Shown here: positions 51,933-64,000 of the stretch, piece after piece | Numbering within the stretch: position 1 is the stretch's first letter | Layout of the letters: every line of letters begins with the position of its first letter | Assembly (NCBI GenBank): GCA_035499895.1 | Contig: DATJXW010000083.1 | Coordinates: 10,793-74,792 of the forward strand | Length of the DNA: 64,000 nucleotides | Source of the DNA: Polyangiaceae bacterium | GTDB lineage: Bacteria; Myxococcota_A; Polyangia; Polyangiales; Polyangiaceae | Direction of reading: 5' to 3' | Position numbers and translations under genes: made by a program | Notes under the pieces: generated by a model | What the model saw: only the letters and a program-made list of their open reading frames with translations | Databases searched by the model: none | Told to the model about the DNA's origin: nothing

Positions 51933-52363
51933 CGCCAGCCGCCGCCGGACTGCCGCTCACGAAACTCTTCTCGGTATTCGCTGCGAGCGTCGGGCCCGAG
52001 GAGCTCGCACGGGTCGAACCAGTGCGTGGTCGTCGCCCTGGCGAGCACCGCCGGAAGCTCGCCCGAAAACTCGGGATTATCCGGGCACCGCCAGTGCCAG
52101 AGAGCAAGTCGGTCCGGCGCGGTGGCGAAGTACAGCACCTCTTTGACGCCGCCGTTGCAGTTCGTCGCGACGACGAGCGTGCCTCCCGGGAGCTCGCCTT
52201 TCACGTCCGGAACGCGCACGACGAGATCGTGATGGAATTCTCCCTGCTGCCAGTGATTCACGAGCTCGTACCGGCCCCACCGTTCGCGCACCCGCTCGAG
52301 GAGTGCGGCGAGCAACAGCGTGCCGGCGAGCTCGGTGACGACCGCGTGCCGCGCTGGTTCCAC
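51905..52363 (-). CDS. Hypothetical protein
   Basis: Coding-like composition with no recognised family. It overlaps the downstream gene by 28 nt. Confidence 0.4.
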   Translation of the reverse strand: MEPARHAVVTELAGTLLLAALLERVRERWGRYELVNHWQQGEFHHDLVVRVPDVKGELPGGTLVVATNCNGGVKEVLYFATAPDRLALWHWRCPDNPEFSGELPAVLARATTTHWFDPCELLGPDARSEYREEFRERQSGGGWRCRVSESAC

Positions 52364-52607
52364 TCGTTCAGTCTATCTGCCGGCGGGCGCCGAGCAACTC
52401 AGTCGCGCGAGCGCGCGACCCCGACCCGACGTCAGAGCGCTCGCTTCCAGCGCGTTTCGCCCCCGAGCTCTTCCGTCGCGTCAACGACGTGCAGCGCACG
52501 GCGACGGCCCGACCGCTCGAAGTACTCGATATGTCGACGCCGAAACGACGGCGCGCCGTCATTCATGCGTCGTGAAGGCGTCGCATGTCCGGCGTAGCGT
52601 GCAGCGC

Positions 52608-53939
52608 ATGCGACGGTTCGGCGAGTTCACGCGGATCGCGTGCGTCGCCGCGGCCGTTTCGTTCGTGTCGGCCGTCTCGCCGCGCTTGCGCGCCGACACG
52701 GCGTTGAGTCTGCCGGCGCAAGTCGGCGAGAAAATTTTCGCCGATCGATCGCTCTCGGCGTCCGGGCAGCTTGCCTGCGCGACCTGTCACGACCCCGCGC
52801 ACGGTTACGCCTCGCCGAACGGCTTGGCCGTCCAGCTCGGCGGCCCGTCGATGTCGCTGCCGGGCACACGTGCGGTCCCGTCGCTCCGCTACAAGGAGTT
52901 CACGCCGCCGTACGCGGACGTCGCCGACAATCCGGACGGTGTGAGCAATCCGGGGCCGGGCGGCGGTTTCACCTGGGACGGCCGCGCGGCGACGCTCGCC
53001 GACCAAGCGCAGATACCCCTGCTCGCCCCGAACGAGATGGCCAACGTCTCCGAAGCCGACGTCGTGAACAAGCTTCAAAACGCCGCGTACGCGGATTTGT
53101 TTCGCGCCGCCTTCGGTAGTGACGTGTTCGGCTCGCCCTCGCTCGCGTTTCAATCCGCGCTCGACGCCCTCCAGGCTTATCAACTCGAGGACAGTGACTT
53201 TCACCCGTACTCGAGCAAGTTCGATTTGTATCTCGGCAACAAGATCGGGGGTGACCTCACGGACTCCGAGCGGCGCGGCGCGGGTGTGTTCGCCGATCCG
53301 AACAAGGGCAATTGCTTTGCGTGTCACTTCGCCGGACCGGGCGTGAACGGCAGTAGCGATCTCTTCACCGACTTCACCTATGCCGCGCTCGGCCTGCCGC
53401 GGAACCCGGAAATCCCAGCGAACGCGGCCCCGAGCTACAACGACCTCGGCATTTGCGGCCGGCCGGACCATCCGTTGCCGGACAGCGCGCAGTATTGCGG
53501 CTTGTTCAAGGTGCCGACGCTGCGCAACGTCGCCACTCGGAAGGTCTTCTTTCACAACGGCAAGCTGAAGTCGCTCCGCGACGTGCTGCGCTTTTACAAC
53601 ACGCGCGACACGAACCCCGAGCTCTGGTACCCGACCGTCAACGGAGTCGTCCAAAAGTTCGACGATTTGCCGCCGCAGTACCAAGCCAACATCGACACCC
53701 AGGCGCCGCTCGACGGCCGCCCCGCCGGCTCCGAGCCGCCGATGTCCGAACAAGACCTCGACGATTTGGAGGCGTTCCTCGAAACGCTGACGGACGCGGA
53801 TCTCGTGACTCAGCCGAGCCCGCCGCAAGCCGTGCCGGCGTTCGGAAACCGTGGTGCGCCGCTGCAAGTGTTCTTGCTCGCGCTCTTGTCGGCGGCGATT
53901 CTGAGCGTCGGTTGGCGTGGAGCAACCCCGGTGCGCTGA
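52608..53939 (+). CDS. Di-haem cytochrome c peroxidase (CCP/MauG family) with C-terminal hydrophobic tail
   Basis: Two CxxCH motifs (CATCHDP, CFACHFA) and FKVPTLRNV. Confidence 0.85.
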   Translation: MRRFGEFTRIACVAAAVSFVSAVSPRLRADTALSLPAQVGEKIFADRSLSASGQLACATCHDPAHGYASPNGLAVQLGGPSMSLPGTRAVPSLRYKEFTPPYADVADNPDGVSNPGPGGGFTWDGRAATLADQAQIPLLAPNEMANVSEADVVNKLQNAAYADLFRAAFGSDVFGSPSLAFQSALDALQAYQLEDSDFHPYSSKFDLYLGNKIGGDLTDSERRGAGVFADPNKGNCFACHFAGPGVNGSSDLFTDFTYAALGLPRNPEIPANAAPSYNDLGICGRPDHPLPDSAQYCGLFKVPTLRNVATRKVFFHNGKLKSLRDVLRFYNTRDTNPELWYPTVNGVVQKFDDLPPQYQANIDTQAPLDGRPAGSEPPMSEQDLDDLEAFLETLTDADLVTQPSPPQAVPAFGNRGAPLQVFLLALLSAAILSVGWRGATPVR

Positions 53940-53975
53940 GGCGAGCGTCACGAGGTTCGCGAGCAGCCACAGTAA

Positions 53976-54518
53976 TCAGTCTGGATAGAACTCGGTGCTG
54001 ACGACGACCTTGTCTCGAAAACAAACCTCTCCGAGGTCCGCGTTCCACGCGGGCTCGAAGGAATGATGATAGATGCGACAAAGGTCGGGTTCTCGTCCGC
54101 GGCGCGGGGCGAGCGGCCCGGCGAAGTACTGCCGCAAGCGTGCGTCCACGTCGGCGGCGCCCATGCCCGGACGAATTTGCTGAAAGTCGCCCAGGAATCG
54201 ATCGCGAGACGTCCACGGATAGCCGAGAACGCCGATGGTCGCCGCGACGAGCCCCGTCCCTAGAACGCCCGCAATGGTGCGAGGGAGCGACATCAGCGAC
54301 GCCCCGGTCAACGCCAGAGCGACGAGGGAGACGATGGTGCCGAAGAAATACCACCTCGAGATCGGCAAGCCGGCGGCCGTGAGCATGAAACGAATGAACA
54401 CGGCGAACAGGTCGACGCCGACGAAGGCGAGGCTTATCGCGATCAGCAGGCGTGGTGTGGTGCTCACGACTTTTTCGGCTCGTACCGCAGCGCTGCGGCA
54501 GCGGAATGGAGGCAGCAC
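53976..54518 (-). CDS. Hypothetical membrane protein
   Basis: It has 3-4 TM helices and a small soluble C-terminus. Confidence 0.5.
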   Translation of the reverse strand: MLPPFRCRSAAVRAEKVVSTTPRLLIAISLAFVGVDLFAVFIRFMLTAAGLPISRWYFFGTIVSLVALALTGASLMSLPRTIAGVLGTGLVAATIGVLGYPWTSRDRFLGDFQQIRPGMGAADVDARLRQYFAGPLAPRRGREPDLCRIYHHSFEPAWNADLGEVCFRDKVVVSTEFYPD

Positions 54519-54646
54519 CCGTCGAGCGTGGCGTTGATGGAGTCACGCGGGGGTCGCATGCCCGAAGAGTGCCGCCGTTCGCCGACGCCAGCAACGAGTG
54601 AGCAAGCGTCGAGGATGTGCGCCGCCACGCGCCGTGCGGAGCGCGC

Positions 54647-54946
54647 TCAGGGCCCGAAGCGCGCGACGACTTCACCCACCATGCGTTGGACGGGTCCGGC
54701 GAGAAGCGGACGCACGTTCTCCGCGAACCAGGGGCCAGCGAGTTTGCTCGAGACTTCGTCGAGTGCTTCGCGCGACTCGAAGAAGGAAAGCGACACCGTC
54801 TCGGTCTCGCTCAGCTGAACGAGCTGCGCACCGAGAAACCCGGGATAGAGTTCCTTGGCGCGCATGAACAACTCGCGTTCGACTTTGCGCAAGAGCTCCT
54901 GATCGAGCGGCTTCACGAGCGTGAACTTGGTGATGATCGTGTGCAT
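54647..54946 (-). CDS. ABM/Dabb-like (ferredoxin-fold) small protein
   Basis: MHTIITKFTLVKP...VSLSFFESREALDEV has the size and pattern of an antibiotic-biosynthesis-monooxygenase-like domain. Confidence 0.5.
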   Translation of the reverse strand: MHTIITKFTLVKPLDQELLRKVERELFMRAKELYPGFLGAQLVQLSETETVSLSFFESREALDEVSSKLAGPWFAENVRPLLAGPVQRMVGEVVARFGP

Positions 54947-55020
54947 GGTTGCTTGCCTTGCCTCCGAGTCGAACACGATTCTTGCAGCCGCTCGAGCGGC
55001 GCAGAGGGTCAGCGTCCCCG

Positions 55021-55902
55021 TCATTCGTCTTTGGTGAGTGTTACGTCGTCGATGATGTTGCTGTCGTCGTCGCTCGCGTCACCATTCAGGAACTCAATCG
55101 TCGTCAGGGCCGACGTGGCGGAAAAATGAAGGACGAAACGCTTCCACGCAAGCGTGTTCGTTCCCGTTCCGTCGGAGTTCGTCGTCGTCGCTATCTCGCT
55201 GTCGTCCACGAGAACGTGGACGACACTGGTGGTTCCATAGGGCGCAGCGACCACGTTCCCGGACCAGAACGACAACGTGTAGGACGCGTCCGGTGCCGTG
55301 GCTACGGACTGAGAAACCCCGGTCGCGGTGTTGCTCAGGCCCGTAAGGTCCAGCGTCTGGTTCCCGTCCTCGGGCGGCCAGGTGATGCCGTCGCTCACGT
55401 ATCCTCCGCTGAGCGGCGCAACATTCCCCGTCTCCCCCACCACCGTCCACCCCTCGAAGCTGCTGCCGGTCGCGAAGAGTTCGTATCCGCCTGCGGGAAC
55501 GACCGGGGATTCGAAGCTGCAGTTCACGAGCAAGGACCTTTGCTCGCAACCTCCCACCGACTCCCCGCCTGAACCGGCGTTGACCTCCTCGCCGCCCGCT
55601 CCCGTCGACGTGGCACCGCCGAAGCCGCTGGCCATGCCCCCCGCGCCCGACAACCCATTGCCGCCTGTGTTCTCGTCACCCGCGGCGCCCGAAGTGGCCG
55701 TCTCGGCGGCACCTCCCGCTCCTGAACCCGCCTGGACACCGACTTCGGTGCCCGCCATGCCTCCGCCCGAATGACCGCCGGCCGCAACGGCAACCCCGGC
55801 GGCGCCTCCACCAGCTGTCGAGTTCGTATCGTCCTTGCATGACCAAACCAGAAAGCCTGCAACGGTCGTCGTGACGAGGATAAGAACCCTCACATTTGCC
55901 AT
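55021..55902 (-). CDS. DUF642-domain secreted lipoprotein
   Basis: Signal/lipobox (LVWSC), Gly-rich linker, NCSFESPVV..GWTV..GNQTLDL..SQSV.T..ASYTLSF. Confidence 0.7.
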   Translation of the reverse strand: MANVRVLILVTTTVAGFLVWSCKDDTNSTAGGGAAGVAVAAGGHSGGGMAGTEVGVQAGSGAGGAAETATSGAAGDENTGGNGLSGAGGMASGFGGATSTGAGGEEVNAGSGGESVGGCEQRSLLVNCSFESPVVPAGGYELFATGSSFEGWTVVGETGNVAPLSGGYVSDGITWPPEDGNQTLDLTGLSNTATGVSQSVATAPDASYTLSFWSGNVVAAPYGTTSVVHVLVDDSEIATTTNSDGTGTNTLAWKRFVLHFSATSALTTIEFLNGDASDDDSNIIDDVTLTKDE

Positions 55903-56107
55903 GATAGAAGACTCCTGGGTAACGGCACGGGAACGGGTGACGAAGGATACGAGCGACTCTCGAGCGACCTTCCTACGGTAACCGCGCGACGTGACGGCCG
56001 CGTTTCGGACTCACGGCCGTCGCTGATCGCGGTTAAACCGGCGCGAAGCGCAGTGCCCGCAGCGCGGCGAATTGTCGACGTCGAACGTCCGTCCTACGCT
56101 CGTCGTC

Positions 56108-56638
56108 ATGATGAGCCCCGAATGGCTGCGCGCCTCTGCTCGTTACAATCGGTGGATGAACGACAAGCTCTACGGGCTTGCCGCCACGCTCGGCGACGAA
56201 GCGCGCAAGCGCGATGTCGGCGCGTTCTTCAAGTCGATTCACGGCACGTTCAACCACCTTCTGCTCGCCGACCGGGTGTGGCTCGCCCGTTTCGACGGCG
56301 TCGTCAGCCCGCCCGGCTGCCTCGCTCCAGGGGGCATCCGCTCACTCGACCAAGAGCTCTTCGCCGACTTCGAGGATCTCCGCCGCGAGCGAACGCTCAC
56401 GGACGACGCGCTCACGAAGTTCGTGTCCGCGCTCACGCCCGAACGTCTCGCCGCGCCACTCGTGTACGACCGCTTCGGCGAAAAGCACGAATGTCCGTGC
56501 TGGTGGGCGATTGCTCACCTCTTCAACCATCAAACGCATCATCGTGGTCAGATCACGACGCTCTTGACGCAACGAGGTCACGACCCGGGCGTCACGGATT
56601 TGTTCGCGATGTTGCGGCTCGAGGCGACGCCGGCTTGA
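56108..56638 (+). CDS. DinB-family protein
   Basis: YNRWMNDKL, HGTFNHLLLADRVWL, HLFNHQTHHRGQITTLL. Confidence 0.8.
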   Translation: MMSPEWLRASARYNRWMNDKLYGLAATLGDEARKRDVGAFFKSIHGTFNHLLLADRVWLARFDGVVSPPGCLAPGGIRSLDQELFADFEDLRRERTLTDDALTKFVSALTPERLAAPLVYDRFGEKHECPCWWAIAHLFNHQTHHRGQITTLLTQRGHDPGVTDLFAMLRLEATPA

Positions 56639-56682
56639 ATTTCGTCGAGGCGCGAGCCGCGCGAACGCCGTGATGGTCCGAG

Positions 56683-57126
56683 TCATGGCGGGTCCAGCTG
56701 GTCGCGCGGCTCCTTGCCGTCGGAGAAGGGATGAAGGAGCAAGAGCTCGAGCATCTGCGCTCGGCGACGGGTCGACCAATTCGGATCGAGCAGAGCGAGG
56801 AGCTCGAGTTGTCTGGCAAAGATCGCACGCCGACAATCCTCACCGTCGATGCGGTTCCGAACCTCGAAGCTGCACGCCATACTGAACGTCACGGCCGTGA
56901 AAATCCGCTCCAGGAGTGCGTCCTCATCGACGAAGGCGTCGCGCACGAGCTCCTGCCCGCGCTCGACCACGACGTAGTACGGCAATTCACCGACGACCTC
57001 GATGTGCGGACGCGCCCCGTCTTCCGTCGAACCGAAGGTCGGCAGATCCGCGTCAGGGGCGTGAACGACGGCAGCGAGCTGCTTCACCCGTTTCTGAATG
57101 CGCCGAAGCGTGCTGTCGTTCGCCAT
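56683..57126 (-). CDS. Hypothetical protein (immunity-protein-like, last ORF of the cassette region)
   Basis: Coding-like and 147 aa, 3 nt downstream of the small ORF 57130..57330. No family was firmly recognised. Confidence 0.5.
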   Translation of the reverse strand: MANDSTLRRIQKRVKQLAAVVHAPDADLPTFGSTEDGARPHIEVVGELPYYVVVERGQELVRDAFVDEDALLERIFTAVTFSMACSFEVRNRIDGEDCRRAIFARQLELLALLDPNWSTRRRAQMLELLLLHPFSDGKEPRDQLDPP

Positions 57127-57129
57127 GGC

Positions 57130-57330
57130 TCAGTCCGCTGAGTCCTCCAGCCACACGCCGCCGATTTGGAGATCACCCGCGAACGCGCACGCGTTCAACA
57201 TCGCAATGTCGTCTTCCGACACGGCATTGGCACGCATGAAGGCGACGCACTCCGCCGGCAGCGTCTCACGTGGGGTACCCGCCGCTGCCAACGCCGAGCC
57301 GAGCATCGAGATGCGATCAGTGACGGTCAT
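57130..57330 (-). CDS. Small hypothetical protein (66 aa)
   Basis: MTVTDRISMLGSALAAAGTPRE... It is tightly coupled to the downstream ORF. Confidence 0.35.
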   Translation of the reverse strand: MTVTDRISMLGSALAAAGTPRETLPAECVAFMRANAVSEDDIAMLNACAFAGDLQIGGVWLEDSAD

Positions 57331-57439
57331 CGAAAGCTCCAACCAATGTACCCCAAACCGGCCGAGGCTTTCAGACTCGCTCGACCACCCCGAGGAGCGC
57401 AAGAGAAACGCGCGCTGCCGGAAATTGCCGGCTCATCCT

Positions 57440-57943
57440 TCACGACGCACTCCGATACCGGACGACGCGGATCTCTCCGTCAAACGAGAGGGCGTCCAGA
57501 ACTCCCAGCATCAGCCGCAGGGATCCGTCCGCTCCAATCCCGCCGGTACCCGCACCAATGAGCGGGAGAGCGAGCGAGCGAAAGCCTGCCTGGGCGGCGA
57601 CTCGTACCGCGCTCCGAACGGACTCCTGAATCGACCGAGGAGACGCGCGCCACAGCAGATTGATTCCCGCGACGTGAATGATCGCACGAAAGGGGAGCCG
57701 CCCCGCGCTTGTCACTACTGCGGCGCCAAGCGGGAGGACGCCGAAGGCGCGAAGCTCTCTGAACGGGGCGAGTCCGGCACGCTGCTTGATTGCGCCCGAC
57801 ACCCCCTGGGGCAGCAGGAGCCACCACGGAAATAGGTTCCGGTTCCAGGGGTTCACGACCGCCTCGACATCCTGGTCGAGCAAATCACCTTCAATCACAT
57901 GGAGCTGCACGGCCGATCGAAACGCCGACGAAGCCCCGCACAT
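57440..57943 (-). CDS. Macro-domain protein (ADP-ribose binding/hydrolase)
   Basis: VIEGDLLDQDVEAVVNPWN, GVSGAIKQRAG, GAAVVTSAG, IIHVAG, ALPLIGAGTGG. Confidence 0.75.
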   Translation of the reverse strand: MCGASSAFRSAVQLHVIEGDLLDQDVEAVVNPWNRNLFPWWLLLPQGVSGAIKQRAGLAPFRELRAFGVLPLGAAVVTSAGRLPFRAIIHVAGINLLWRASPRSIQESVRSAVRVAAQAGFRSLALPLIGAGTGGIGADGSLRLMLGVLDALSFDGEIRVVRYRSAS

Positions 57944-57958
57944 TCCGATGTTCGTTGT

Positions 57959-57999
57959 GTACCCGATTTCAGCGCGTCAGCGGCGAACCGGTGTTAGCC
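57959..57999 (-). repeat. attC-like site B (left box degenerate)
   Basis: GTACCCGATTTCAGCGCG TCAGC GGCGAACCGGT GTTAGCC. The stop TAA of 57994..58635 lies inside the box. Confidence 0.55.
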
Positions 58000-58635
58000 G
58001 GTCAACGCTCGGAGCCGCTCGAGCAATGCAGGGTCAGCTCGGACCAGGCCGACCGTCGGGTGTCGACTGAGACCGGAGTGCCGTTCCGCAGCGGCTTGCA
58101 GGGCGATGGCCGCGTGAGTCTTGGCTCTGTCGGCGTCACCGCGCGACCACGCGATCAGACTCCGGGCCGCGGCCACTTCGAAACGATCGGCGGTGAACGT
58201 GGCTTGGGACTCGGCCGACTCGAGAACGGAGAGTGCCTCCACGAAAGCGCCCTGCAAATTCCGCCGGGCAACGAAGAGCGGAAATTCAAAGCCAACGCGC
58301 GTTCTGACGTTTTGCGTCTCCCGTTCAGCCGCGAGAGCAGCACGGTAAGCCTCGAGTGACCCGGCAACGTCGTCCAGTGCATCACAGCTCTGCGCACGTT
58401 GAAGAAGCGCTTGGGCGCGGTGGATGGGTGCATCGTAGTTTTCAAGCAGTTCAGCGAGGAGAGCGAGGGCGGCGCCATGCTCTCCGGCCTCAGCCAAGTG
58501 CGCCGCCTGAATCCGGAGGTACTGCGCCCGCGACGCCGGGCGGCTGCGCGCGAGCCGTTTTTCAAAGTCCACGCGGTCCGCCTCGGTCCAGCTGGTCTTG
58601 CGAAACCACTCGGCCATATCAGGTCTCGCTAGCAT
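57994..58635 (-). CDS. TPR-like helical repeat protein (cassette ORF)
   Basis: All-helical with Ala/Leu-rich TPR-like pairs. Coding-like. Confidence 0.55.
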   Translation of the reverse strand: MLARPDMAEWFRKTSWTEADRVDFEKRLARSRPASRAQYLRIQAAHLAEAGEHGAALALLAELLENYDAPIHRAQALLQRAQSCDALDDVAGSLEAYRAALAAERETQNVRTRVGFEFPLFVARRNLQGAFVEALSVLESAESQATFTADRFEVAAARSLIAWSRGDADRAKTHAAIALQAAAERHSGLSRHPTVGLVRADPALLERLRALTG

Positions 58636-58725
58636 CTGTCGTCGAGCGAGTCGACGACGAATCGGACGAATGCCGTCTCAGCGGGTCTCGAAACCGGCGG
58701 ATGATGACGATTCGGCTATCCGTAC

Positions 58726-58782
58726 GCCTAACTTACCAGGTTTCAGTTGCGCCGAAGGAGCAGAAGCGACACCGGCTTAATG
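58726..58782 (-). repeat. attC-like site A (partly decayed)
   Basis: GCCTAAC TTA CCAGGTTTCAGTTGCGCCG...CAGAAGCGACACCGG CTTAATG. Its core is related to site G. Confidence 0.55.
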
Positions 58783-59394
58783 CTCGTTCGAGCGATCGCC
58801 CGCGACCGTCAGGGTATCGAACAAGCGAACAATAGCGTTGAAGGCCGCCTTGACGGCGTCGCCGGCCTCTCCCGGAAGCGACGAGCGCCCAAAGCAGCGT
58901 TGCTCTTGGATCAGTTCCCCCTCGAAGGTCACGAGTGGAGCGTCTGAGGCCAGCACATCGCGAAGCTTCCGCGCTTGACGGAGATGCAGGCGATAAAGGT
59001 CGGATGCCACGGAGTTAGTCTCGTCCGACGCACTCGAACCGAGCTTGAGGTAGTATTCCTCGAGCGCGTCGTGCAGCCGTGCGCGTATGGCCGACTCCCG
59101 CAAATCAACCAAACGCTCGACGCGCCCGTGCGCGACGACGCGCGAACCCTCGCGAATCTCGAAGTCCAGCCCAGGAACGACCTTCCCGAGGTGCTCGGCC
59201 GGCGACAGGAAGTGCAGGAAGGCACGCACGCGCTGCCCGGGAAGAACGCGCTCATCGTCGGGGTACTCATGCATGGCATCCCAGTCACCGTTTGCGTAGT
59301 GAACCTGGGCCCGGTAACCAGTCCAGACCGGAGTGCTGCGCCCGCCCTCGCTGGTCGGCACGAATTGGAGGAAGACCTCAATGTCGCGACGCAT
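58777..59394 (-). CDS. Stand-alone EF-Tu domain-III homologue fused to a helical C-terminal domain (cassette ORF)
   Basis: SEGGRSTPVWTGYRAQVHY...LPGQRV...GLDFEIREGSRVVAHGRV aligns by eye with EF-Tu DEGGRHTPFFKGYRPQFYF...MPGDN...GLRFAIREGGRTVGAGVV. Confidence 0.65.
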   Translation of the reverse strand: MRRDIEVFLQFVPTSEGGRSTPVWTGYRAQVHYANGDWDAMHEYPDDERVLPGQRVRAFLHFLSPAEHLGKVVPGLDFEIREGSRVVAHGRVERLVDLRESAIRARLHDALEEYYLKLGSSASDETNSVASDLYRLHLRQARKLRDVLASDAPLVTFEGELIQEQRCFGRSSLPGEAGDAVKAAFNAIVRLFDTLTVAGDRSNEH

Positions 59395-59404
59395 CTGCAA
59401 GTTT

Positions 59405-59457
59405 GGCTAACGTACCAGGTTTCAGCTGCGCCGCGTCTGCTGCAAACCGGATTTGCG
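59405..59457 (-). repeat. attC-like site D (short form)
   Basis: GGCTAAC GTA CCAGGTTTCAGC TGCGCCGCGTCT GCTGCAAACCGG ATTTGCG. Confidence 0.7.
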
Positions 59458-59476
59458 TGGCGGCGGCCTGTGACAT

Positions 59477-59851
59477 TCATCGTTCTGTTCGCCGAGCACG
59501 ACCTCTTAGCAGCCGAAGCAGAAGCTGCGGGCAAAGAAACCACAGCATCGCGTTCCCCAGATACGCGGGACCCGTCAGCGGACCGACAAAATCCTCCCAG
59601 CGACCATTGTGCTTTTCGAACGCTGCAGCCGTGAAGGGAAGTCCGACGATGCGCAGGTCATCGGCAAGGGGATAGATGACGAAGAATGAAACGGTCGCGA
59701 GGACTATGCTCGCCCCTAGGCAGGCTGACCGTTCCCACGGAGTTCGGTAGCTCCGACGAGAGTCTCGTCGATTTCGGATAAGAGCACGCGCTCCCGCCCA
59801 GAGTCCGATGAACCCCGAGACATTGAACACGAGCAGGACGAGGCTGGCCAA
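59477..59851 (-). CDS. Hypothetical membrane protein (cassette ORF, TTG start uncertain)
   Basis: It has 3 predicted TM segments. The start codon is uncertain. Confidence 0.4.
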   Translation of the reverse strand: MASLVLLVFNVSGFIGLWAGARALIRNRRDSRRSYRTPWERSACLGASIVLATVSFFVIYPLADDLRIVGLPFTAAAFEKHNGRWEDFVGPLTGPAYLGNAMLWFLCPQLLLRLLRGRARRTER

Positions 59852-60101
59852 TCCACCGAATAATACGCCGAGCTCAGACGGAGATTAGCGGATCAGCGCG
59901 CCAGCTACCAGCACCGATTCGCGCGAAACGCGGTCGTCAACGCCAGGTACTCCTCGCGGGTATCGCCAGGGCAACCGTGGGCGCAACCGCCTCTAATCGG
60001 AAGCGGTCCGCCGGTAGCAGGACGAGCGCGCGACACCGGACGATCGCATGCGGACAACAGAACACGGGTCCATCTGCCCAACCGTCCGTCGCTCATGCGT
60101 T

Positions 60102-60174
60102 TGGCAACGTACCATGGCTAAGCTGCGCGGGTCGAGCGTAGCGAGACACCCGTCCGTTCAGCCCGGAGTTAGGC
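60102..60174 (-). repeat. attC-like site E (divergent core, canonical right box)
   Basis: TGGCAAC GTA CCATGGCTAAGC...GTTCAGCCCGG A GTTAGGC. It has the same bulged-stem geometry with a different core sequence. Confidence 0.7.
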
Positions 60175-60184
60175 AGACGACGCC

Positions 60185-60616
60185 TCAGAAAGTGTCGAAG
60201 GCTACGACGACATCCGACCGACGAGCTCCGGACCACCGTCGCGCCAGGGCTGCGTACTTGAGCACCGCCGATCGCGGGCCGTTCCAACGAACTTCCAGGA
60301 CCGGGTCACCGCCGGGACCAGGTGGTGCGCGCCCGTGATCATCGTCAACCGAGCACAGGTTGCCCGGGCCGTCTGGAGTCGGTGCGTCGAGCGGCACTAT
60401 CGATGCTTGCGTCGCGAAGGGTGTGGTCGCTCCGCAGTCGCGCTCGAACACCACGATTTTGAACGGCCGGTCCGGCGAGGGGTATTCCTGAATGAGCTGA
60501 TTGGCACAAAGATCCGCAACCAACGCGCGCTCGCCGATTGCCGCGACGGCGGCCAAGGATGCGAGCGCGGCCAACCCGCTGGCTGTTACCTTGAGCCGCA
60601 ACGTCCAGTAGGTCAT
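60185..60616 (-). CDS. Hypothetical TM-anchored/secreted protein (cassette ORF)
   Basis: MTYWTLRLKVTASGLAALASLAAVAAIG... ATGA overlap with the upstream ORF. Confidence 0.45.
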   Translation of the reverse strand: MTYWTLRLKVTASGLAALASLAAVAAIGERALVADLCANQLIQEYPSPDRPFKIVVFERDCGATTPFATQASIVPLDAPTPDGPGNLCSVDDDHGRAPPGPGGDPVLEVRWNGPRSAVLKYAALARRWSGARRSDVVVAFDTF

Positions 60617-60990
60617 GGGAGAAGCTTGCGATCCGGAGGCATGGCTGGTGGATCGAACCGATCGAAGCGTGCTCTTAGAAAATATGTAACTGGCGATAGA
60701 CAAAGACCGAAGGCGAGTAGGGCGATCCAAACCAAAGTCACGCCCATTGCTGGGATCGTCGGGACGTCCCCATCAGTGACCACCTGGAAGCCAAACCGGT
60801 ATTGGGTTTCAATCAGCGCGCTAAATAGAACGAACGCAGTGGCGAAGACGGTCGGAATCGAAAGGATGGCAGCGACTGGCACGCCGCAGGCAACCAAAGT
60901 GAATCGATCCATGGGTTTTGTTCTCGAAGGGTAAGAGATCGGACCGCAGGGCAGTGTGAAGATTTCATGGAGAAACCGCGCATAAAACAT
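60613..60990 (-). CDS. Hypothetical membrane protein (cassette ORF)
   Basis: It has TM helices. The ATG at 60990 lies 15 nt after the box of site G, whereas the longer track ORF reads through the repeat. Confidence 0.45.
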   Translation of the reverse strand: MFYARFLHEIFTLPCGPISYPSRTKPMDRFTLVACGVPVAAILSIPTVFATAFVLFSALIETQYRFGFQVVTDGDVPTIPAMGVTLVWIALLAFGLCLSPVTYFLRARFDRFDPPAMPPDRKLLP

Positions 60991-61004
60991 CAGCCCTCCA
61001 TTGT

Positions 61005-61062
61005 CCCTAACGTACCAAGGCTTCAACTGCGCCGGGTGAGCAGAAGCGCAGAAGCGAACGCG
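61005..61062 (-). repeat. attC-like site G (right end decayed)
   Basis: CCCTAAC GTA CCAAGGCTTCAACTGCGCC...GCGCAGAAGC. The stem GCTTC..TGCGC/GCGCAGAAGC is present. Confidence 0.55.
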
Positions 61063-61115
61063 CGGCACGTTTCTTTGAGCCGTGCGACGTGATTGATCAA
61101 GCGTACATCTAGTGA

Positions 61116-61229
61116 ATGGCCAAGACCTACACGACCGCGAACGCTCGAGCCAAGCTCGCCGACATCGTTGACGAGGTCGAGGCCGGCTCCGAGGTCGAGC
61201 TCACGCGACGCGGTTCTACGAAGGGCTGA
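61116..61229 (+). pseudogene. Truncated Phd/YefM-family antitoxin remnant
   Basis: MAKTYTTANARAKLADIVDEVEAGSEVELTRRG then a premature stop. It matches the N-terminal half of Phd/YefM antitoxins, and no partner toxin is present. Confidence 0.45.
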
Positions 61230-61394
61230 CCTTCAGCGATGTGGAAGGCATCGGCGGATGCCATCTCGAACAGGTCGGCATGCAAGTGCAGGCCATCGAA
61301 ACTCGAAGCTGCCATGGCAACCGCGGACTCGAGCACACCGTCTAACGCCGGTCATAACGTCGCGCAAGTCGCTTCGGCTCGCCTCCAACCGCGC

Positions 61395-61443
61395 GCCCGA
61401 CGTACCAGGTTTCAGCCGCGTCAACTGCAAACCGGAGTTAGGC
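61395..61443 (-). repeat. attC-like site H (short form)
   Basis: GCCCGAC GTA CCAGGTTTCAG CCGCGTCAA CTGCAAACCGG A GTTAGGC. Confidence 0.75.
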
Positions 61444-61463
61444 GGCTCTTGCTCGGGGGTTGG

Positions 61464-61487
61464 CCATGTGTAAAGGTTCACACATGG
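61464..61487. promoter_or_regulatory. Perfect 8-bp inverted repeat over the vapB start (candidate operator)
   Basis: CCATGTGT-N8-ACACATGG. The right arm contains the vapB ATG. Confidence 0.4.
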
Positions 61488-61684
61488 CGACGAACCTTGC
61501 GATCGACGAACGGCTTCTAGACGAGGCCCGCAAGGTTGGCGGGCACAAGACGAAGAAGGCGACCGTCAATGAGGCGCTGACGGAGTATATTCAACGCCGA
61601 AGGCAACAGAAGGTCTTGGACCTGTTCGGGAAAGTCTCGATCGACGCCGACTATGACTACAAGGCTCAGCGGCGGCGCCGGTGA
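61484..61684 (+). CDS. vapB: VapB-type antitoxin
   Basis: MATNLAIDERLLDEARKVGGHKTKKATVNEALTEYI. It overlaps the PIN gene in a GTGA. Confidence 0.7.
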   Translation: MATNLAIDERLLDEARKVGGHKTKKATVNEALTEYIQRRRQQKVLDLFGKVSIDADYDYKAQRRRR

Positions 61685-62100
61685 ACGTCATCGTCGACAC
61701 GTCCGTCTGGTCCCTGGCACTCCGTCGAGATGCGCCCCGAGAAACGGCTCCCGAACGCGAGCTCGGCGAGCTGGTTCGCGAAGGGCGCGTGCTGATCGCT
61801 GGGCCCATCAGACAAGAACTTCTCTCGGGGGTTCGCGCGCCAGCGCAGTACAAGGCCCTCCGTGACAAACTCCGCGCATTTCCCGACATCGCGCTTGGGA
61901 CCAACGACTACGAAAACGCCTCTGCGTGCTTCAACCGCTGCCGGTCGAAGGGTGTCCAGGGATCAAACACCGACTTCCTGCTGTGCGCGGTGGCCCTGCG
62001 CCTGGATGCAGGGATCCTGACGACCGACAAGGACTTCGACCACTTCGCCAGGATCCTAAGGATCAAGCTGCACCGCCCGAGGCACGGACTGTCCGCCTAA
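61681..62100 (+). CDS. vapC: PIN-domain toxin VapC
   Basis: VIVDTSVW..., ...ILTTDKDF. The acidic PIN residues are in order. Confidence 0.8.
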   Translation: MNVIVDTSVWSLALRRDAPRETAPERELGELVREGRVLIAGPIRQELLSGVRAPAQYKALRDKLRAFPDIALGTNDYENASACFNRCRSKGVQGSNTDFLLCAVALRLDAGILTTDKDFDHFARILRIKLHRPRHGLSA

Positions 62101-62159
62101 CGATCACGCGCGGTTCGGCGGTCGCCTCCCCCCGGGACAAGATGAGTGAGCCACGGGGA

Positions 62160-62690
62160 TCAATGCCAATGCTGCCAGGCGCCGATGCTAATGGTGGTCA
62201 CTGCGATCGGAACGTGCTGCCCGAGGAGGTCAAGCCATCGATCGCGTCCGCTCGCGTCCCAAGCAATCTTGACGATTCCGTCGAGGCACGTGAGCTCGAT
62301 CGTCTCGACGAAGCCCCGCGCGACCGCATCCGTCGTGGACAGCAGGAGACGCGCCGAGGTGATCTCCGTCCACGACATCTGCAGGCCGTGCGATACACCG
62401 ATCAGACGAAAGCCGACCTCATCGCACACCAGCGTGCCCGGATTGCGAAACTCCGGCAGGAGGCCGGCTCGGGCTACTCGGAGATGGTGACGCCACACGA
62501 ACCCGAACCCGCAAGCCGCAATCCCAAAGCCGAGAAGAACGATACGCCAATCATCGAGCACCAGCAGCAGCACCGCAGGCAGGGGAAGGACGACGCCGGC
62601 GACTCCAACAAGCCAGTTCTTGACATGCCAGCGCCGCGCCCTCGCGTTCGTCGCTCGACGGTACTCAGCGGCTCGAACATGCTGCTCCAT
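62160..62690 (-). CDS. Hypothetical membrane protein (cassette ORF)
   Basis: The ATG at 62690 lies 6 nt after the box of site I. It has two TM helices and a soluble C-terminal domain. Confidence 0.5.
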   Translation of the reverse strand: MEQHVRAAEYRRATNARARRWHVKNWLVGVAGVVLPLPAVLLLVLDDWRIVLLGFGIAACGFGFVWRHHLRVARAGLLPEFRNPGTLVCDEVGFRLIGVSHGLQMSWTEITSARLLLSTTDAVARGFVETIELTCLDGIVKIAWDASGRDRWLDLLGQHVPIAVTTISIGAWQHWH

Positions 62691-62696
62691 CTGTCC

Positions 62697-62772
62697 GCCT
62701 AGCGTACCAGGTTTCAGCAGCGCCGGCCGAGCAAACGCGAGGGCGGCGTCTGCTGCAAACCGGAAGTTGGGC
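62697..62772 (-). repeat. attC-like site I (long form)
   Basis: GCCTAGC GTA CCAGGTTTCAGCAGCGCCGGCCGAGC AAAC GCGAGGGCGGCGTCTGCTGCAAACCGG AA GTTGGGC. Confidence 0.8.
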
Positions 62773-62779
62773 AGTCCCT

Positions 62780-63442
62780 TTAGTCTTCGAACGGATAGGG
62801 TAGCTTCTGGATGGCCTCGAAGTGGTGCCGCCGGCAGTGGACGCTGAGCGAAACGCAAAGCCGTTCGCACCCGTCTACGCGGCAGACGCGCGGACCAACT
62901 TCGGGATCCCGAGACCACTTTTCGTACTGACGCTTCAGGTATGCGACGGGCGGGCGGTAGGGGACCTGGATCGTGGGAACGGCCCCCATCTGGAGGTAGT
63001 AGAGCCGGCCTTCAGCGGAGAGGGCACGTTCCAAGAACTCCGAAAAGGATGCGGCGATCACATGACGAGAGCGAGAATCTTCGTGGTCGCAGTCCAGGAT
63101 CCGATTGTCTCCCTCGACGGATCGTTCGAGCTCGATTGCCACGAAATTACCGTCATGGACGTCGCAGAAGGCGTACCAAGACGCCGGCTCAGAATCCACC
63201 CACTCGGCACCACACAAGGCGCTCCCAGTTCGCTGAAATTGCTCGACGGGGAGAAGGCAGTATCCGCCCGCGAGCTCGGCACGGTGAATCCGGAGATAGA
63301 AGGCGCGTAGGTCAGCAGGGAGCGTGAATCCGGACCTACTCTCGAATGCGTCCAGCCGCTCGGCCGCGTTGGCTCGTGCGAGCTCGTGACTGTCTGACGC
63401 TTCGACCGCGCTGATCAAAGCCTCGAACGATATCTTCATCAC
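62780..63442 (-). CDS. SMI1/KNR4 (SUKH-1) family protein (cassette ORF)
   Basis: FESRSGFTLPADLRAFYLRIH...WYAFCDVHDGNFVAIEL is SUKH-like. The C-terminus has a Cys/His cluster (CRVDGCERLC..HCRRHH). Confidence 0.65.
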   Translation of the reverse strand: MMKISFEALISAVEASDSHELARANAAERLDAFESRSGFTLPADLRAFYLRIHRAELAGGYCLLPVEQFQRTGSALCGAEWVDSEPASWYAFCDVHDGNFVAIELERSVEGDNRILDCDHEDSRSRHVIAASFSEFLERALSAEGRLYYLQMGAVPTIQVPYRPPVAYLKRQYEKWSRDPEVGPRVCRVDGCERLCVSLSVHCRRHHFEAIQKLPYPFED

Positions 63443-63464
63443 CGCTTCAGCTTTCGACTGGCCT

Positions 63465-63539
63465 GCCCAACGTACCAGGTTTCAGCAGCGCCGGCCGAGC
63501 GGAAGCGAGGGCGGCGTCTGCTGCAAACCGGAGTTAGCC
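63465..63539 (-). repeat. attC-like site J (long form)
   Basis: GCCCAAC GTA CCAGGTTTCAGCAGCGCCGGCCGAGC GGAA GCGAGGGCGGCGTCTGCTGCAAACCGG A GTTAGCC. The stop TAA of 63534..63947 lies inside the box. Confidence 0.8.
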
Positions 63540-63947
63540 GGCCTGCGCACCGAGCGCGGCAAGCACCGCACGTTGGTCGTCGTCGTCGCAGACACCGTGG
63601 CCCTTCGTCAACATAGAAAGGAGACCGACGGAGCGTTGAGCTTGCGCGGCAGCGAGCACCTTATGGTGACCATCAAGAATGTAGTGCGTGAGACACAGGT
63701 GCTGTTCAACAATCCCATCAGTTTCGGCGGGGCCCTTCACGTCCAGGATCGAAATTGCAACCGCGGTCGGCGTTTTACCAACGGCAAGCGCCGCGCCGTA
63801 GGCCGCAACCGTCTCTGGATTGAGCCAACGCCCTGGAAACATCGGAACCAGAAACTCAAACAAGCGCCGAGCGGGCGTTATCATCTTTGTGCCGAGCCGG
63901 TAGTACTCGGTTCGAGGATCGTGCGGCAGGTCCCAGAACGTATCCAC
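63534..63947 (-). CDS. Hypothetical protein (cassette ORF; HYILDGHHK motif)
   Basis: Coding-like. LDGHHKVLAA is reminiscent of ParB/Srx-type DGxHR motifs (weak). The 5' end is close to the window edge. Confidence 0.45.
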   Translation of the reverse strand: MDTFWDLPHDPRTEYYRLGTKMITPARRLFEFLVPMFPGRWLNPETVAAYGAALAVGKTPTAVAISILDVKGPAETDGIVEQHLCLTHYILDGHHKVLAAAQAQRSVGLLSMLTKGHGVCDDDDQRAVLAALGAQAG

Positions 63948-64000
63948 ACCGAAAAGGTCTGTCTGCTCGTGACTAAAGTAATCATCGATCCCACCCGGTC

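What the first reader, a model, noticed from the sequence alone, without database searches (positions are those of the whole stretch)
57993..63471. The 7-mer boxes match across cassettes better than within a site, as expected for G|TT crossover shuffling
The left box of site J, GCCCAAC (63465-71), is the exact reverse complement of the right box of site I, GTTGGGC (62766-72). These are the two boxes that flank one cassette. The two boxes within J (GCCCAAC and GTTAGCC) and within I (GCCTAGC and GTTGGGC) each differ from perfect complementarity at 2 positions. The same pattern holds elsewhere. The right box of H, GTTAGGC (61437-43), is the exact complement of GCCTAAC at 62095-62101 and is 1 mismatch from the left box of I. 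The right box of E, GTTAGGC, against the left box of G, CCCTAAC, has 1 mismatch. The right box of B, GTTAGCC, against the left box of A, GCCTAAC, has 1 mismatch. In integrons the TTRRRY half of R' travels with the neighbouring cassette, which produces exactly this pattern. A passive repeat family would not produce it.
Basis: seen in the sequence. Interest (0 to 1): 0.7.

Follow-up and report, generated by a model that had tools for sequence, protein, structure and literature searches.

The report
Integron gene-cassette array in a myxobacterium
The repeats are the recombination sites (attC) of an integron gene-cassette array in an uncultured Polyangiaceae bacterium. Their end boxes match across each cassette rather than within each site, which is the long-known footprint of cassettes being cut out and inserted at one fixed point, so the finding is real but ordinary.

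Summary

**How strong the pattern is**
- In the window alone it is weak (5 pairs, P=0.05).
- I extended the contig to 72,690 via an identical ENA contig, giving 12 full sites and 2 half-sites. The pattern then holds at P=0.012.
- The same about 75-nt repeat occurs in other MAGs, mostly Polyangiaceae. Over 50 cassette-flanking pairs the mean is 0.76 mismatches at the four variable positions, and 26 pairs are exact. Within-site pairs average 1.51 and random pairs 1.53 (p≤5e-5).

**Why the repeats are attC sites**
- They carry RYYYAAC and GTTRRRY boxes.
- The hairpin shows strong covariation.
- Extrahelical bases lie at positions 16 and 23.
- A TIGR02249 integron integrase sits beside the same repeats in a related contig.

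**One correction: polarity**
The window's + strand is the attC bottom strand.

**State of this array**
No integrase lies within the 72.7 kb held, so this copy is operationally an integrase-less attC cluster (CALIN). It shows decay: five degenerate or half sites, and mutated AAC triplets.

**Verdict**
The mechanism is textbook. This is a new member of a known kind.

The parts
57952..57999 (+). attC site B. It is the terminal site, furthest from the integrase-proximal end, and is decayed. Its left box is TCGTTGT (AAC triplet lost) and its right box is GTTAGCC. The + strand is the bottom strand.
   Evidence: Covariance model R2 hit of 13.7 bits; sequence read.
57994..58635 (-). Cassette ORF of 213 aa with no family match. 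Its stop codon TAA lies inside the reverse complement of B's right box.
58726..58783 (+). attC site A. The left half is intact (GCCTAAC-TTACCAGGTTTCAG). The right arm is deleted or decayed (…CCGGCTTAATG).
   Evidence: R2 hit of 15.3 bits.
58777..59400 (-). Cassette ORF of 207 aa. It has only a sub-threshold EF-Tu domain-3-like match.
59405..59458 (+). attC site C, 54 nt, with the terminal loop region deleted. Boxes are GGCTAAC and TTTGCGT.
   Evidence: R2 hit of 56.3 bits.
59477..59851 (-). Cassette ORF of 124 aa, hydrophobic, with no family match.
60102..60174 (+). attC site E. It is a sub-type with compensatory changes in the L box (GGCTAAGC / GTTCAGCC). Boxes are TGGCAAC and GTTAGGC.
   Evidence: R2 hit of 64.5 bits. 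The same sub-type occurs in L048, L055, L074 and L109.
60185..61068 (-). One cassette interval holding two overlapping − strand ORFs of 181 aa and 151 aa, with no confident family.
61005..61088 (+). attC site G. Only the left half is recognisable (CCCTAAC-GTACCAAGGCTTCAAC). The right arm is decayed.
   Evidence: R2 hit of 8.9 bits, repeat family D5.
61103..61213 (+). Truncated Phd/YefM-type antitoxin fragment.
   Evidence: Pfam PF02604, 26.7 bits, below the cut-off of 29.8. An 82% identical copy lies in L019 290-400.
61395..61443 (+). attC site H, 49 nt, with the loop deleted. Boxes are GCCCGAC (triplet mutated to GAC) and GTTAGGC.
   Evidence: R2 hit of 50.6 bits.
61484..62100 (+). vapB-vapC toxin-antitoxin pair, on the opposite strand to the other cassette genes.
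   Evidence: PF09957 and PF01850 on the called genes.
62095..62101 (+). Orphan box GCCTAAC. It is the exact complement of H's right box and contains the vapC stop codon. No attC body follows it.
62160..62690 (-). Cassette ORF of 176 aa, membrane-like, with no family match.
62697..62772 (+). attC site I, 76 nt. Boxes are GCCTAGC (triplet mutated to AGC) and GTTGGGC.
   Evidence: R2 hit of 88.2 bits; folds at -24.4 kcal/mol, z -3.8.
62780..63442 (-). Cassette ORF of 220 aa, SMI1/KNR4 (SUKH-1) family. It is bounded by the perfectly complementary boxes GTTGGGC and GCCCAAC.
   Evidence: PF09346, 61 bits. A homologous cassette, 84% nt identity, sits between attC sites in another context, L107.
63465..63539 (+). 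attC site J, 75 nt, near the family consensus. Boxes are GCCCAAC and GTTAGCC.
   Evidence: R2 hit of 98.8 bits. The + strand folds at -23.7 kcal/mol (z -4.4) against -19.4 for the − strand.
63534..64000 (-). 3' part of a 255-aa cassette ORF that starts at 64301 on the contig. Its stop codon lies inside the reverse complement of J's right box. The array continues beyond the window: full sites at 64353-64427, 65460-65508, 68081-68131 and 68907-68982, and half-sites at 66080-99 and 67125-44.

Best explanation
**What it is.** Window 57,952-64,000, continuing to about 68,982 on the source contig, is an integron gene-cassette array in the chromosome of an uncultured Polyangiaceae-like (Myxococcota) bacterium.

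**The sites.** Each about 75-nt repeat is an attC site. The window's + strand is the bottom strand, the one that folds and is recombined. It reads 5'-R'(RYYYAA|C) – spacer GTACCA – L'(GGTTTCAGC) – stem and loop – L''(GCTG[C]AAACC) – GGA – R''(GTTRRRY)-3'. Extrahelical bases sit at position 16 (C) and position 23 (T), counted from the 3' end.

**The cassettes.** The cassettes lie on the − strand as ORF followed by attC. The stop codon often falls inside R''.

**How the pattern arises.** An integron integrase cuts between A and C of the AAC triplet, which is G|TT on the top strand. A cassette therefore carries its own R'' and site body, plus the six bases RYYYAA that sit in the next site's left box. 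In the excised circle those six bases rejoin their own attC and pair with R''. That is why the two boxes flanking one ORF are complementary, while the two boxes of one site in the array come from different cassettes and match no better than chance.

**Shown here.**
- The site anatomy.
- The covariation of the hairpin.
- The statistical pattern of the boxes.
- The polarity.
- An IntI next to the same attC family in related contigs.
- The same cassette between different neighbours in another genome.

**Inferred, not shown.**
- That IntI built this particular array.
- Its present state. No intI lies within the 72.7 kb held. Five of 14 sites are truncated or decayed, and 3 of the 9 strong sites have a mutated AAC. 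I therefore take it to be an integrase-less, partly fossilising array (CALIN). Its intact sites could still be used by an IntI encoded elsewhere in the genome.
For: **Site detection.** A covariance model built from the repeat finds 12 full sites, all on the + strand, between 57,952 and 68,982, and nothing convincing in window 1-57,900. Two right-arm half-sites in the same span were found by fuzzy pattern search.

**Hairpin covariation over 68 sites**.
- 92.4% of cells are paired, against 81.8% after shuffling.
- 125 cells have changes on both sides, against 34.8 expected.
- No shuffle out of 500 reaches the observed values.
- Versions with the 3' partner slid by one to three columns pair 17-47% of cells.

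**Box pattern.** Flanking pairs average 0.76 mismatches, within-site pairs 1.51 and random pairs 1.53, p<=5e-5. On the focal contig alone P=0.012.

**Polarity.**
- ORFs lie on the − strand, with TAA inside the reverse complement of the right box for 3 cassettes.
- A duplicated cassette, L030 4476-5246 and L083 3866-4632, shares the site body, the right box, the ORF region and the next left box GGCTAAC+G. After that the next site bodies differ.
- L055 and L074 share the same right-hand boundary.
- Position 16 is C in 61 of 68 sites and position 23 is T in 52 of 68, on the arm opposite 5'-AAC. This matches the canonical bottom-strand layout in PMC5027507.
- The + strand folds better than the − strand, -23.7 against -19.4 kcal/mol.

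**Integrase.**
- L023 3288-4233 scores 336 bits on TIGR02249 (cut-off 265) and lies beside three family attC sites.
- The C-terminus of an IntI lies at L083 7917-8000, in the same position relative to that array.

**Modularity.** The SMI1/KNR4 cassette recurs at 84% nt identity between attC sites with unrelated neighbours in L107.

**Cassette content.** The content is typical of chromosomal arrays: vapBC, a second PIN pair, a SUKH immunity protein and many ORFans.

**Definition.** The cassette runs from the first T of R' to the G of the next R' (PMC2674596).
Against: - No integrase was found by tblastn anywhere in window 1-64,000 or in the extension to 72,690. At the end where relatives carry intI, the array abuts a LuxC/aminotransferase operon.
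- No attI or promoter was identified.
- The first extrahelical base is C, not the usual G.
- The short sites (49-54 nt) fall below the usual attC size range and do not fold significantly.
- Three of the 9 strong sites have a mutated AAC triplet, against 3 of 58 elsewhere, p=0.028. Part of the array may no longer be recombinable.
- No experiment or population data shows recombination here.
- Two flanking pairs on the contig (C/E and K/L) have 2 mismatches.
Confidence: 0.9

Rival explanations
1. It is a complete, active chromosomal integron. Its integrase gene lies just outside the sequence I could fetch, either beyond 72,690 on the 60-kb contig or elsewhere in the genome, and it still shuffles these cassettes.
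For: The contig continues about 38 kb beyond 72,690 and I could not read that part. Related arrays have IntI at the corresponding end. Several sites (J, K, P, L, O) are intact and close to the family consensus.
Against: At the end where relatives have intI, the array is followed directly by about 0.5 kb of non-coding DNA and then an unrelated LuxC/aminotransferase operon for 3.7 kb. Five of 14 sites are decayed or are half-sites, and mutated AAC triplets are enriched.
Confidence: 0.15
2. It is a passive family of intergenic hairpin repeats (REP/BIME- or MITE-like, or terminators) that spread by duplication. On this reading the flanking-box complementarity is chance or shared ancestry.
For: The repeats are intergenic, palindromic and highly similar to each other. 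The window alone gives only P=0.05.
Against: - The family-wide excess of flanking complementarity holds at p<=5e-5 on mean mismatches even when shuffling within loci, while within-site pairing is at the random level. That is the opposite of what a self-contained palindromic element predicts.
- Homology between copies of a cassette ends exactly at the box-body junction.
- The extrahelical bases sit at canonical attC positions.
- An integron integrase lies adjacent in related contigs.
Confidence: 0.03
3. The sites are attC-like, but the modules are moved by another recombinase, for example the IS110-family transposases seen inserted in these sites, or by a Xer-type enzyme, rather than by an integron integrase.
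For: IS110-family elements are inserted precisely at the left box of several family sites. No IntI is present in cis in this contig.
Against: The IS copies are discrete insertions with their own ends, not cassette boundaries. The site architecture matches IntI substrates in detail. IntI is physically linked to the same attC family in L023 and L083.
Confidence: 0.02

Closest known systems
Sedentary chromosomal integron arrays with lineage-specific attC sites, such as the Vibrio cholerae superintegron with its VCR repeats or the Xanthomonas arrays
   Same: - Tandem ORF-attC cassettes with highly homogeneous attC sites that are shared within a lineage.
- Mostly ORFan cassettes, plus toxin-antitoxin cassettes that may be inverted.
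- Hybrid R' boxes, so that cassette-flanking boxes pair.
- Recombination of the bottom strand, with extrahelical bases at positions 16 and 23/24 (PMC5027507).
   Different: - No integrase next to this array.
- Only about 14 sites over 11 kb.
- The attC is 75 nt, with C instead of G as the first extrahelical base (61 of 68 sites).
- The host is an uncultured Polyangiaceae bacterium.
- Several sites are truncated.
CALIN (cluster of attC sites lacking an integron integrase), as defined for IntegronFinder.
   Same: Two or more attC sites in one orientation with no intI nearby: none in the 57 kb on one side and none in the 3.7 kb on the other. There are signs of decay.
   Different: I could not run IntegronFinder itself. 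The right flank held is 3.7 kb, slightly short of the 4-kb criterion.
Reverse-orientation integrons, in which intI is transcribed towards the cassettes, as described for typical Spirochaetota IntIs (PMC9668308)
   Same: In the related loci L023 and L083, the 3' end of intI faces the array and is co-directional with the cassette top strand.
   Different: This was seen only in relatives, not in this contig. The phylogenetic placement of the Polyangiaceae IntI was not determined.
REP/BIME or MITE-type intergenic palindromic repeats
   Same: Short, abundant, intergenic and hairpin-forming.
   Different: In those elements the two ends belong to one element and would match within a site. Here within-site matching is at the random level and across-cassette matching is strong.

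Membership tests
attC recombination site | Terminal boxes R' 5'-RYYYAAC-3' and R'' 5'-GTTRRRY-3' on the bottom strand, with conserved AAC and GTT triplets | tested here: met
   The three AAC:GTT pairs are paired in 94.6% of cells over 68 sites. Boxes are listed. On this contig 6 of 9 strong sites keep AAC and 7 of 9 keep GTT.
attC recombination site | An imperfect hairpin (L boxes, stem, variable terminal structure) that is conserved as structure rather than sequence | tested here: met
   Covariation score 0.244 against 0.081 after shuffling. 125 cells carry compensatory changes against 34.8 expected, with 0 of 500 shuffles reaching this. Slid controls score 0.012-0.05. Sub-types show compensatory L-box changes.
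attC recombination site | [quoted passage not shown] | tested here: met
   An unpaired base sits at position 16 (C in 61 of 68 sites) and an unpaired T at position 23 (52 of 68). Six positions lie between them, one of which is a T·T mismatch. The first base is C, not the usual G.
attC recombination site | Length about 57-141 bp | tested here: met
   Full sites are 73-76 nt. Four sites of 49-54 nt are deletion derivatives below the range.
Integron cassette array | Co-oriented attC sites separated by single compact ORFs, as ORF then attC, with the unit running from the T of R' to the G of the next R' (PMC2674596) | tested here: met
   Spacing is 0.6-1.3 kb. ORFs are on the − strand, with stops in or just before R''. 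A duplicated cassette shares exactly site body + R'' + ORF + next RYYYAAC.
Integron cassette array | Hybrid R' boxes: cassette-flanking boxes are complementary and within-site boxes are not | tested here: met
   with the figures given under the observation check.
Complete integron | An integron integrase gene (TIGR02249, carrying the IntI-specific extra domain) adjacent to the array | tested here: not met
The feature is met in the related loci L023 (336 bits) and L083 (C-terminal fragment).
Complete integron | An attI site and a Pc promoter upstream of the first cassette | not tested
   I only noted a candidate terminal box, AACTAAC, at about 69,520 on the contig. No functional or comparative test was made.
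CALIN | At least 2 attC sites with no integrase within about 4 kb | tested here: met
   Twelve full sites. No IntI in the 57 kb to the left or the 3.7 kb to the right. The right flank held is 0.3 kb short of 4 kb.
Integron cassette array | IntI-catalysed excision and insertion of the cassettes | not testable with these tools
   This needs recombination assays or population sequencing.

The most novel reading that the evidence does not exclude
Polyangiaceae carry their own homogeneous attC family: 75 nt, first extrahelical base C, and a nearly invariant CGAGCG-NNN-GCGAG apical loop. It is served by a reverse-oriented IntI. Single near-consensus copies of this site occur in MAGs assigned to Planctomycetota (inside a 1.28-Mb Gemmataceae contig), Thermodesulfobacteriota, Gemmatimonadota and Pseudomonadota. 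On this reading those copies record cassette export from myxobacteria across phyla, and the conserved loop is a binding site for a lineage-specific host factor.
Probability: 0.2. Interest if true: 0.45.

Novelty: new member of a known kind. Interest (0 to 1): 0.25.

Why it matters
It adds a well-documented cassette array, and a defined attC family, for Polyangiaceae. This group of large-genome soil predators is known mainly from MAGs, and the papers I could search barely describe integrons in it.

The locus is a clean, quantitative illustration that attC boxes in an array are hybrids. It also shows how to read array polarity from sequence alone. It does not change what is understood about integrons.

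Practically, the covariance model and consensus could be used to trace myxobacterial cassettes in metagenomes.

Tried and rejected
- **Rfam.** No match at gathering thresholds. One chance-level hit appeared at the E-value threshold. Rfam returned no attC match.
- **First covariance model (R1).** I mistyped its structure by one column. I discarded it and rebuilt it as R2.
- **Exact-protein look-ups of the SMI1/KNR4 ORF.** Both failed because that ORF was not called in the source assembly. The Macro and 176-aa proteins worked.
- **Fuzzy regular-expression search for half-sites.** It missed several obvious sites and was replaced by the covariance model.
- **Synteny with L034.** Only one 152-aa gene is shared, so it says nothing about cassette turnover.
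- **Nucleotidyltransferase gene shared with L030 (89%).** The homology ends inside the gene region, not at attC boundaries, so it says nothing about mobility.
- **Left boundary of the L030/L083 duplicated cassette.** It is confounded by a DDE_3 insertion element in L030. Only the right boundary and the shared site body are used as evidence.
- **GCCTAAC at 62095 as a full site.** Rejected: no model hit and no hairpin.
- **'TATCAAC' left boxes in L037, L047 and L100.** These are IS110 ends, not cassette boxes. They remain in the totals and can only dilute the signal.
- **Rest of the contig (72.7-110.5 kb).**

Full report
**The observation.** The repeats share the consensus RYYYAAC-GTACCAGGTTTCAGC-(loop)-GCTGCAAACCGGA-GTTRRRY. 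Rfam gives no match.

**Extending the array.**
- The Macro-domain protein and a 176-aa cassette protein led to ENA contig ERZ27256576:k141_3655107, which is 60,410 bp long.
- The reverse complement of locus L106 is identical to window 52,160-64,000, with 0 mismatches in 11,841 bases. It extends the sequence to window-equivalent 72,690.
- I built a covariance model from 31 copies (R2). An earlier model, R1, had a mistyped structure and was discarded.
- With filters off, R2 finds 12 full sites, all on the + strand, between 57,952 and 68,982. Two right-arm half-sites, at 66,080-99 and 67,125-44, come from fuzzy pattern search. Nothing convincing lies in window 1-57,900.
- Beyond the last site there is one more small ORF and about 0.5 kb of non-coding DNA. 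A LuxC/aminotransferase operon follows.

**The repeat family in other genomes.**
- An exact 16-mer scan of one genome per species returned 104 loci. Many of these are chance matches.
- About two dozen loci, mostly from Polyangiaceae MAGs, carry the whole repeat at 82-99% identity, usually in arrays.
- Over 68 sites the hairpin is strongly supported by covariation:
  - 92.4% of cells are paired, against 81.8% after shuffling.
  - 125 cells have changes on both sides, against 34.8 expected.
  - No shuffle out of 500 reaches the observed values.
  - Registers slid by one to three columns pair far fewer cells.

I compared the four variable positions of each right box with the reverse complement of the next left box.

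| Data set | Flanking pairs | Result |
|---|---|---|
| 24 loci of the family | 50 | mean 0.76 mismatches, 26 exact |
| same loci, within-site pairs | 73 | mean 1.51, 13 exact |
| same loci, random pairs | – | mean 1.53, 6.8 exact expected |
| focal contig alone | 9 | 7 mismatches against 12.9 expected, P=0.012 |
| focal contig, within-site | 9 sites | 17 mismatches |
| window alone | 5 | P=0.05 |

- In the family set, both the global shuffle and the within-locus shuffle give p<=5e-5 on mean mismatches.
- The focal-contig and window figures come from exact permutation.
- The pattern is real. It is carried mainly by the extension and by the family, not by the window alone.
- It is exactly what the accepted cassette definition implies. 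[quoted passage not shown]

**Polarity.** Four independent lines show that the window's + strand is the attC bottom strand.
1. The cassette ORFs are on the − strand. For three cassettes the TAA stop lies inside the reverse complement of the right box.
2. A cassette is present twice in one MAG, at L030 4476-5246 and L083 3866-4632. The two copies share the site body, the right box, the ORF region and the next left box GGCTAAC plus G. After that the two following site bodies are unrelated. L055 and L074 show the same right-hand boundary. The left box therefore travels with the DNA on its left, and the crossover is at the junction of left box and site body.
3. On the + strand, unpaired bases sit at position 16 (C in 61 of 68 sites) and position 23 (T in 52 of 68), counted from the 3' end. 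They lie on the arm opposite 5'-AAC and are separated by six stem positions. This is the canonical bottom-strand layout described by Nivina et al. (PMC5027507). The + strand of site J also folds better than the − strand, -23.7 against -19.4 kcal/mol.
4. In L023, an integron integrase lies beside three family attC sites, on the side predicted by this polarity. It scores 336 bits on TIGR02249 (cut-off 265) and carries the IntI-specific patch. Its 3' end faces the array. L083 shows the C-terminus of an IntI in the same position. This is the reverse-orientation layout known from Spirochaetota (PMC9668308).

The RYYYAA of each left box belongs to the cassette at lower coordinates.

**Evidence for modularity.**
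- The SMI1/KNR4 cassette (62,780-63,442; PF09346) has an 84% nt-identical homologue in a JGI metagenome contig, L107.
- There it also sits between family attC sites, and its own R'' box is the same (GTTGGGC).
- Its neighbours are unrelated, it lies next to a glyA-like gene, and no IntI is within 4 kb.

**State of this array.**
- tblastn found no IntI anywhere in the 72.7 kb held. Operationally this is an integrase-less attC cluster (CALIN).
- Sites B, A and G are decayed. Sites M and N keep only the L''-R'' arm.
- Sites C, H, L and O have lost the loop region.
- Three of the 9 strong sites have a mutated cleavage triplet (AGC, AGC, GAC), against 3 of 58 in other arrays, Fisher p=0.028.
- I infer an array built by integron recombination that is now eroding. 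Its intact sites could still serve an IntI acting in trans. About 38 kb of the contig remains unread.

**Cassette content.** The content is typical of chromosomal arrays:
- vapBC on the opposite strand.
- A second PIN pair.
- A Phd/YefM fragment.
- A SUKH immunity protein.
- An RDD membrane protein.
- AbiEii-like and AAA fragments.
- Several ORFans.

**Comparison with what is known, and novelty.**
- Hybrid R' boxes and the G|TT crossover are textbook integron biology.
- Integrons in Myxococcota appear in surveys (PMC9668308). The searchable literature holds little on Polyangiaceae arrays.
- The locus is a new member of a known kind.
- Its mildly unusual features are C as the first extrahelical base, a near-invariant apical loop, and the reverse-oriented IntI seen in relatives.
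- Interest is low to moderate.

Noticed in passing
L037 5020-5961 and 6684-7742; also L047 about 800-2332 and L100 near 1351: An IS110-family element (Transposase_20, 75.9 bits) is inserted at the left box of attC sites. It is present as two 99.9% identical copies in one array. Its end creates false 'TATCAAC' left boxes. It resembles the attC-targeting IS1111-attC group (my own recall).
   Followed up: partly
L030 3494-4475 and L083 1-583: A DDE_3 (IS630-like) transposase element ends in CTGTAAC and abuts an attC body in L030. It confounds the left boundary of the duplicated cassette.
   Followed up: partly
L023 3288-4233: The integron integrase next to the family array is split over two reading frames near 3560-3600. 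This is either a frameshift or an assembly error, so it may be a pseudogene.
   Followed up: no
window-equivalent 64827-66200 (L106 6491-7864): The assembly's 457-aa gene call reads straight through attC site L (65460-65508) and half-site M. It fuses an AAA ATPase fragment with an RDD membrane protein from two different cassettes.
   Followed up: partly
window-equivalent 66200-66520, − strand: A transposase-like fragment (…GADKAYD…) lies inside the array between half-sites M and N. It has no Pfam hit.
   Followed up: no
L072 3249-3323; L005 4187-4261; L039 3459-3533; L084 3335-3409; L071 3457-4975: Near-consensus copies of this Polyangiaceae-type attC (71-95 bits) occur, mostly singly (three in L071), in MAGs assigned to other phyla. 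One lies inside a 1.28-Mb Gemmataceae contig. This could be cross-phylum cassette transfer or mis-binning.
   Followed up: partly
window 58001-64000: The array has lower G+C (61-63%) than the rest of the window (64-74%).
   Followed up: no
window 55021-57943: Small accessory-type genes lie just outside the last attC: Macro domain, a 66-aa ORF, Imm63, DinB and DUF642. They could be former cassettes, but no attC remnant was detected between them.
   Followed up: partly
positions 32-45 of the 75-nt sites, for example window 63496-63509: The apical loop CGAGCG-NNN-GCGAG is almost invariant in 32 full-length sites from many genomes, although it is largely unpaired. In attC sites this region is normally the variable part. 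I have no explanation.
   Followed up: no
window 61103-61213 and L019 290-400: A truncated Phd/YefM antitoxin fragment is 82% identical to a segment in another Polyangiaceae array.
   Followed up: no
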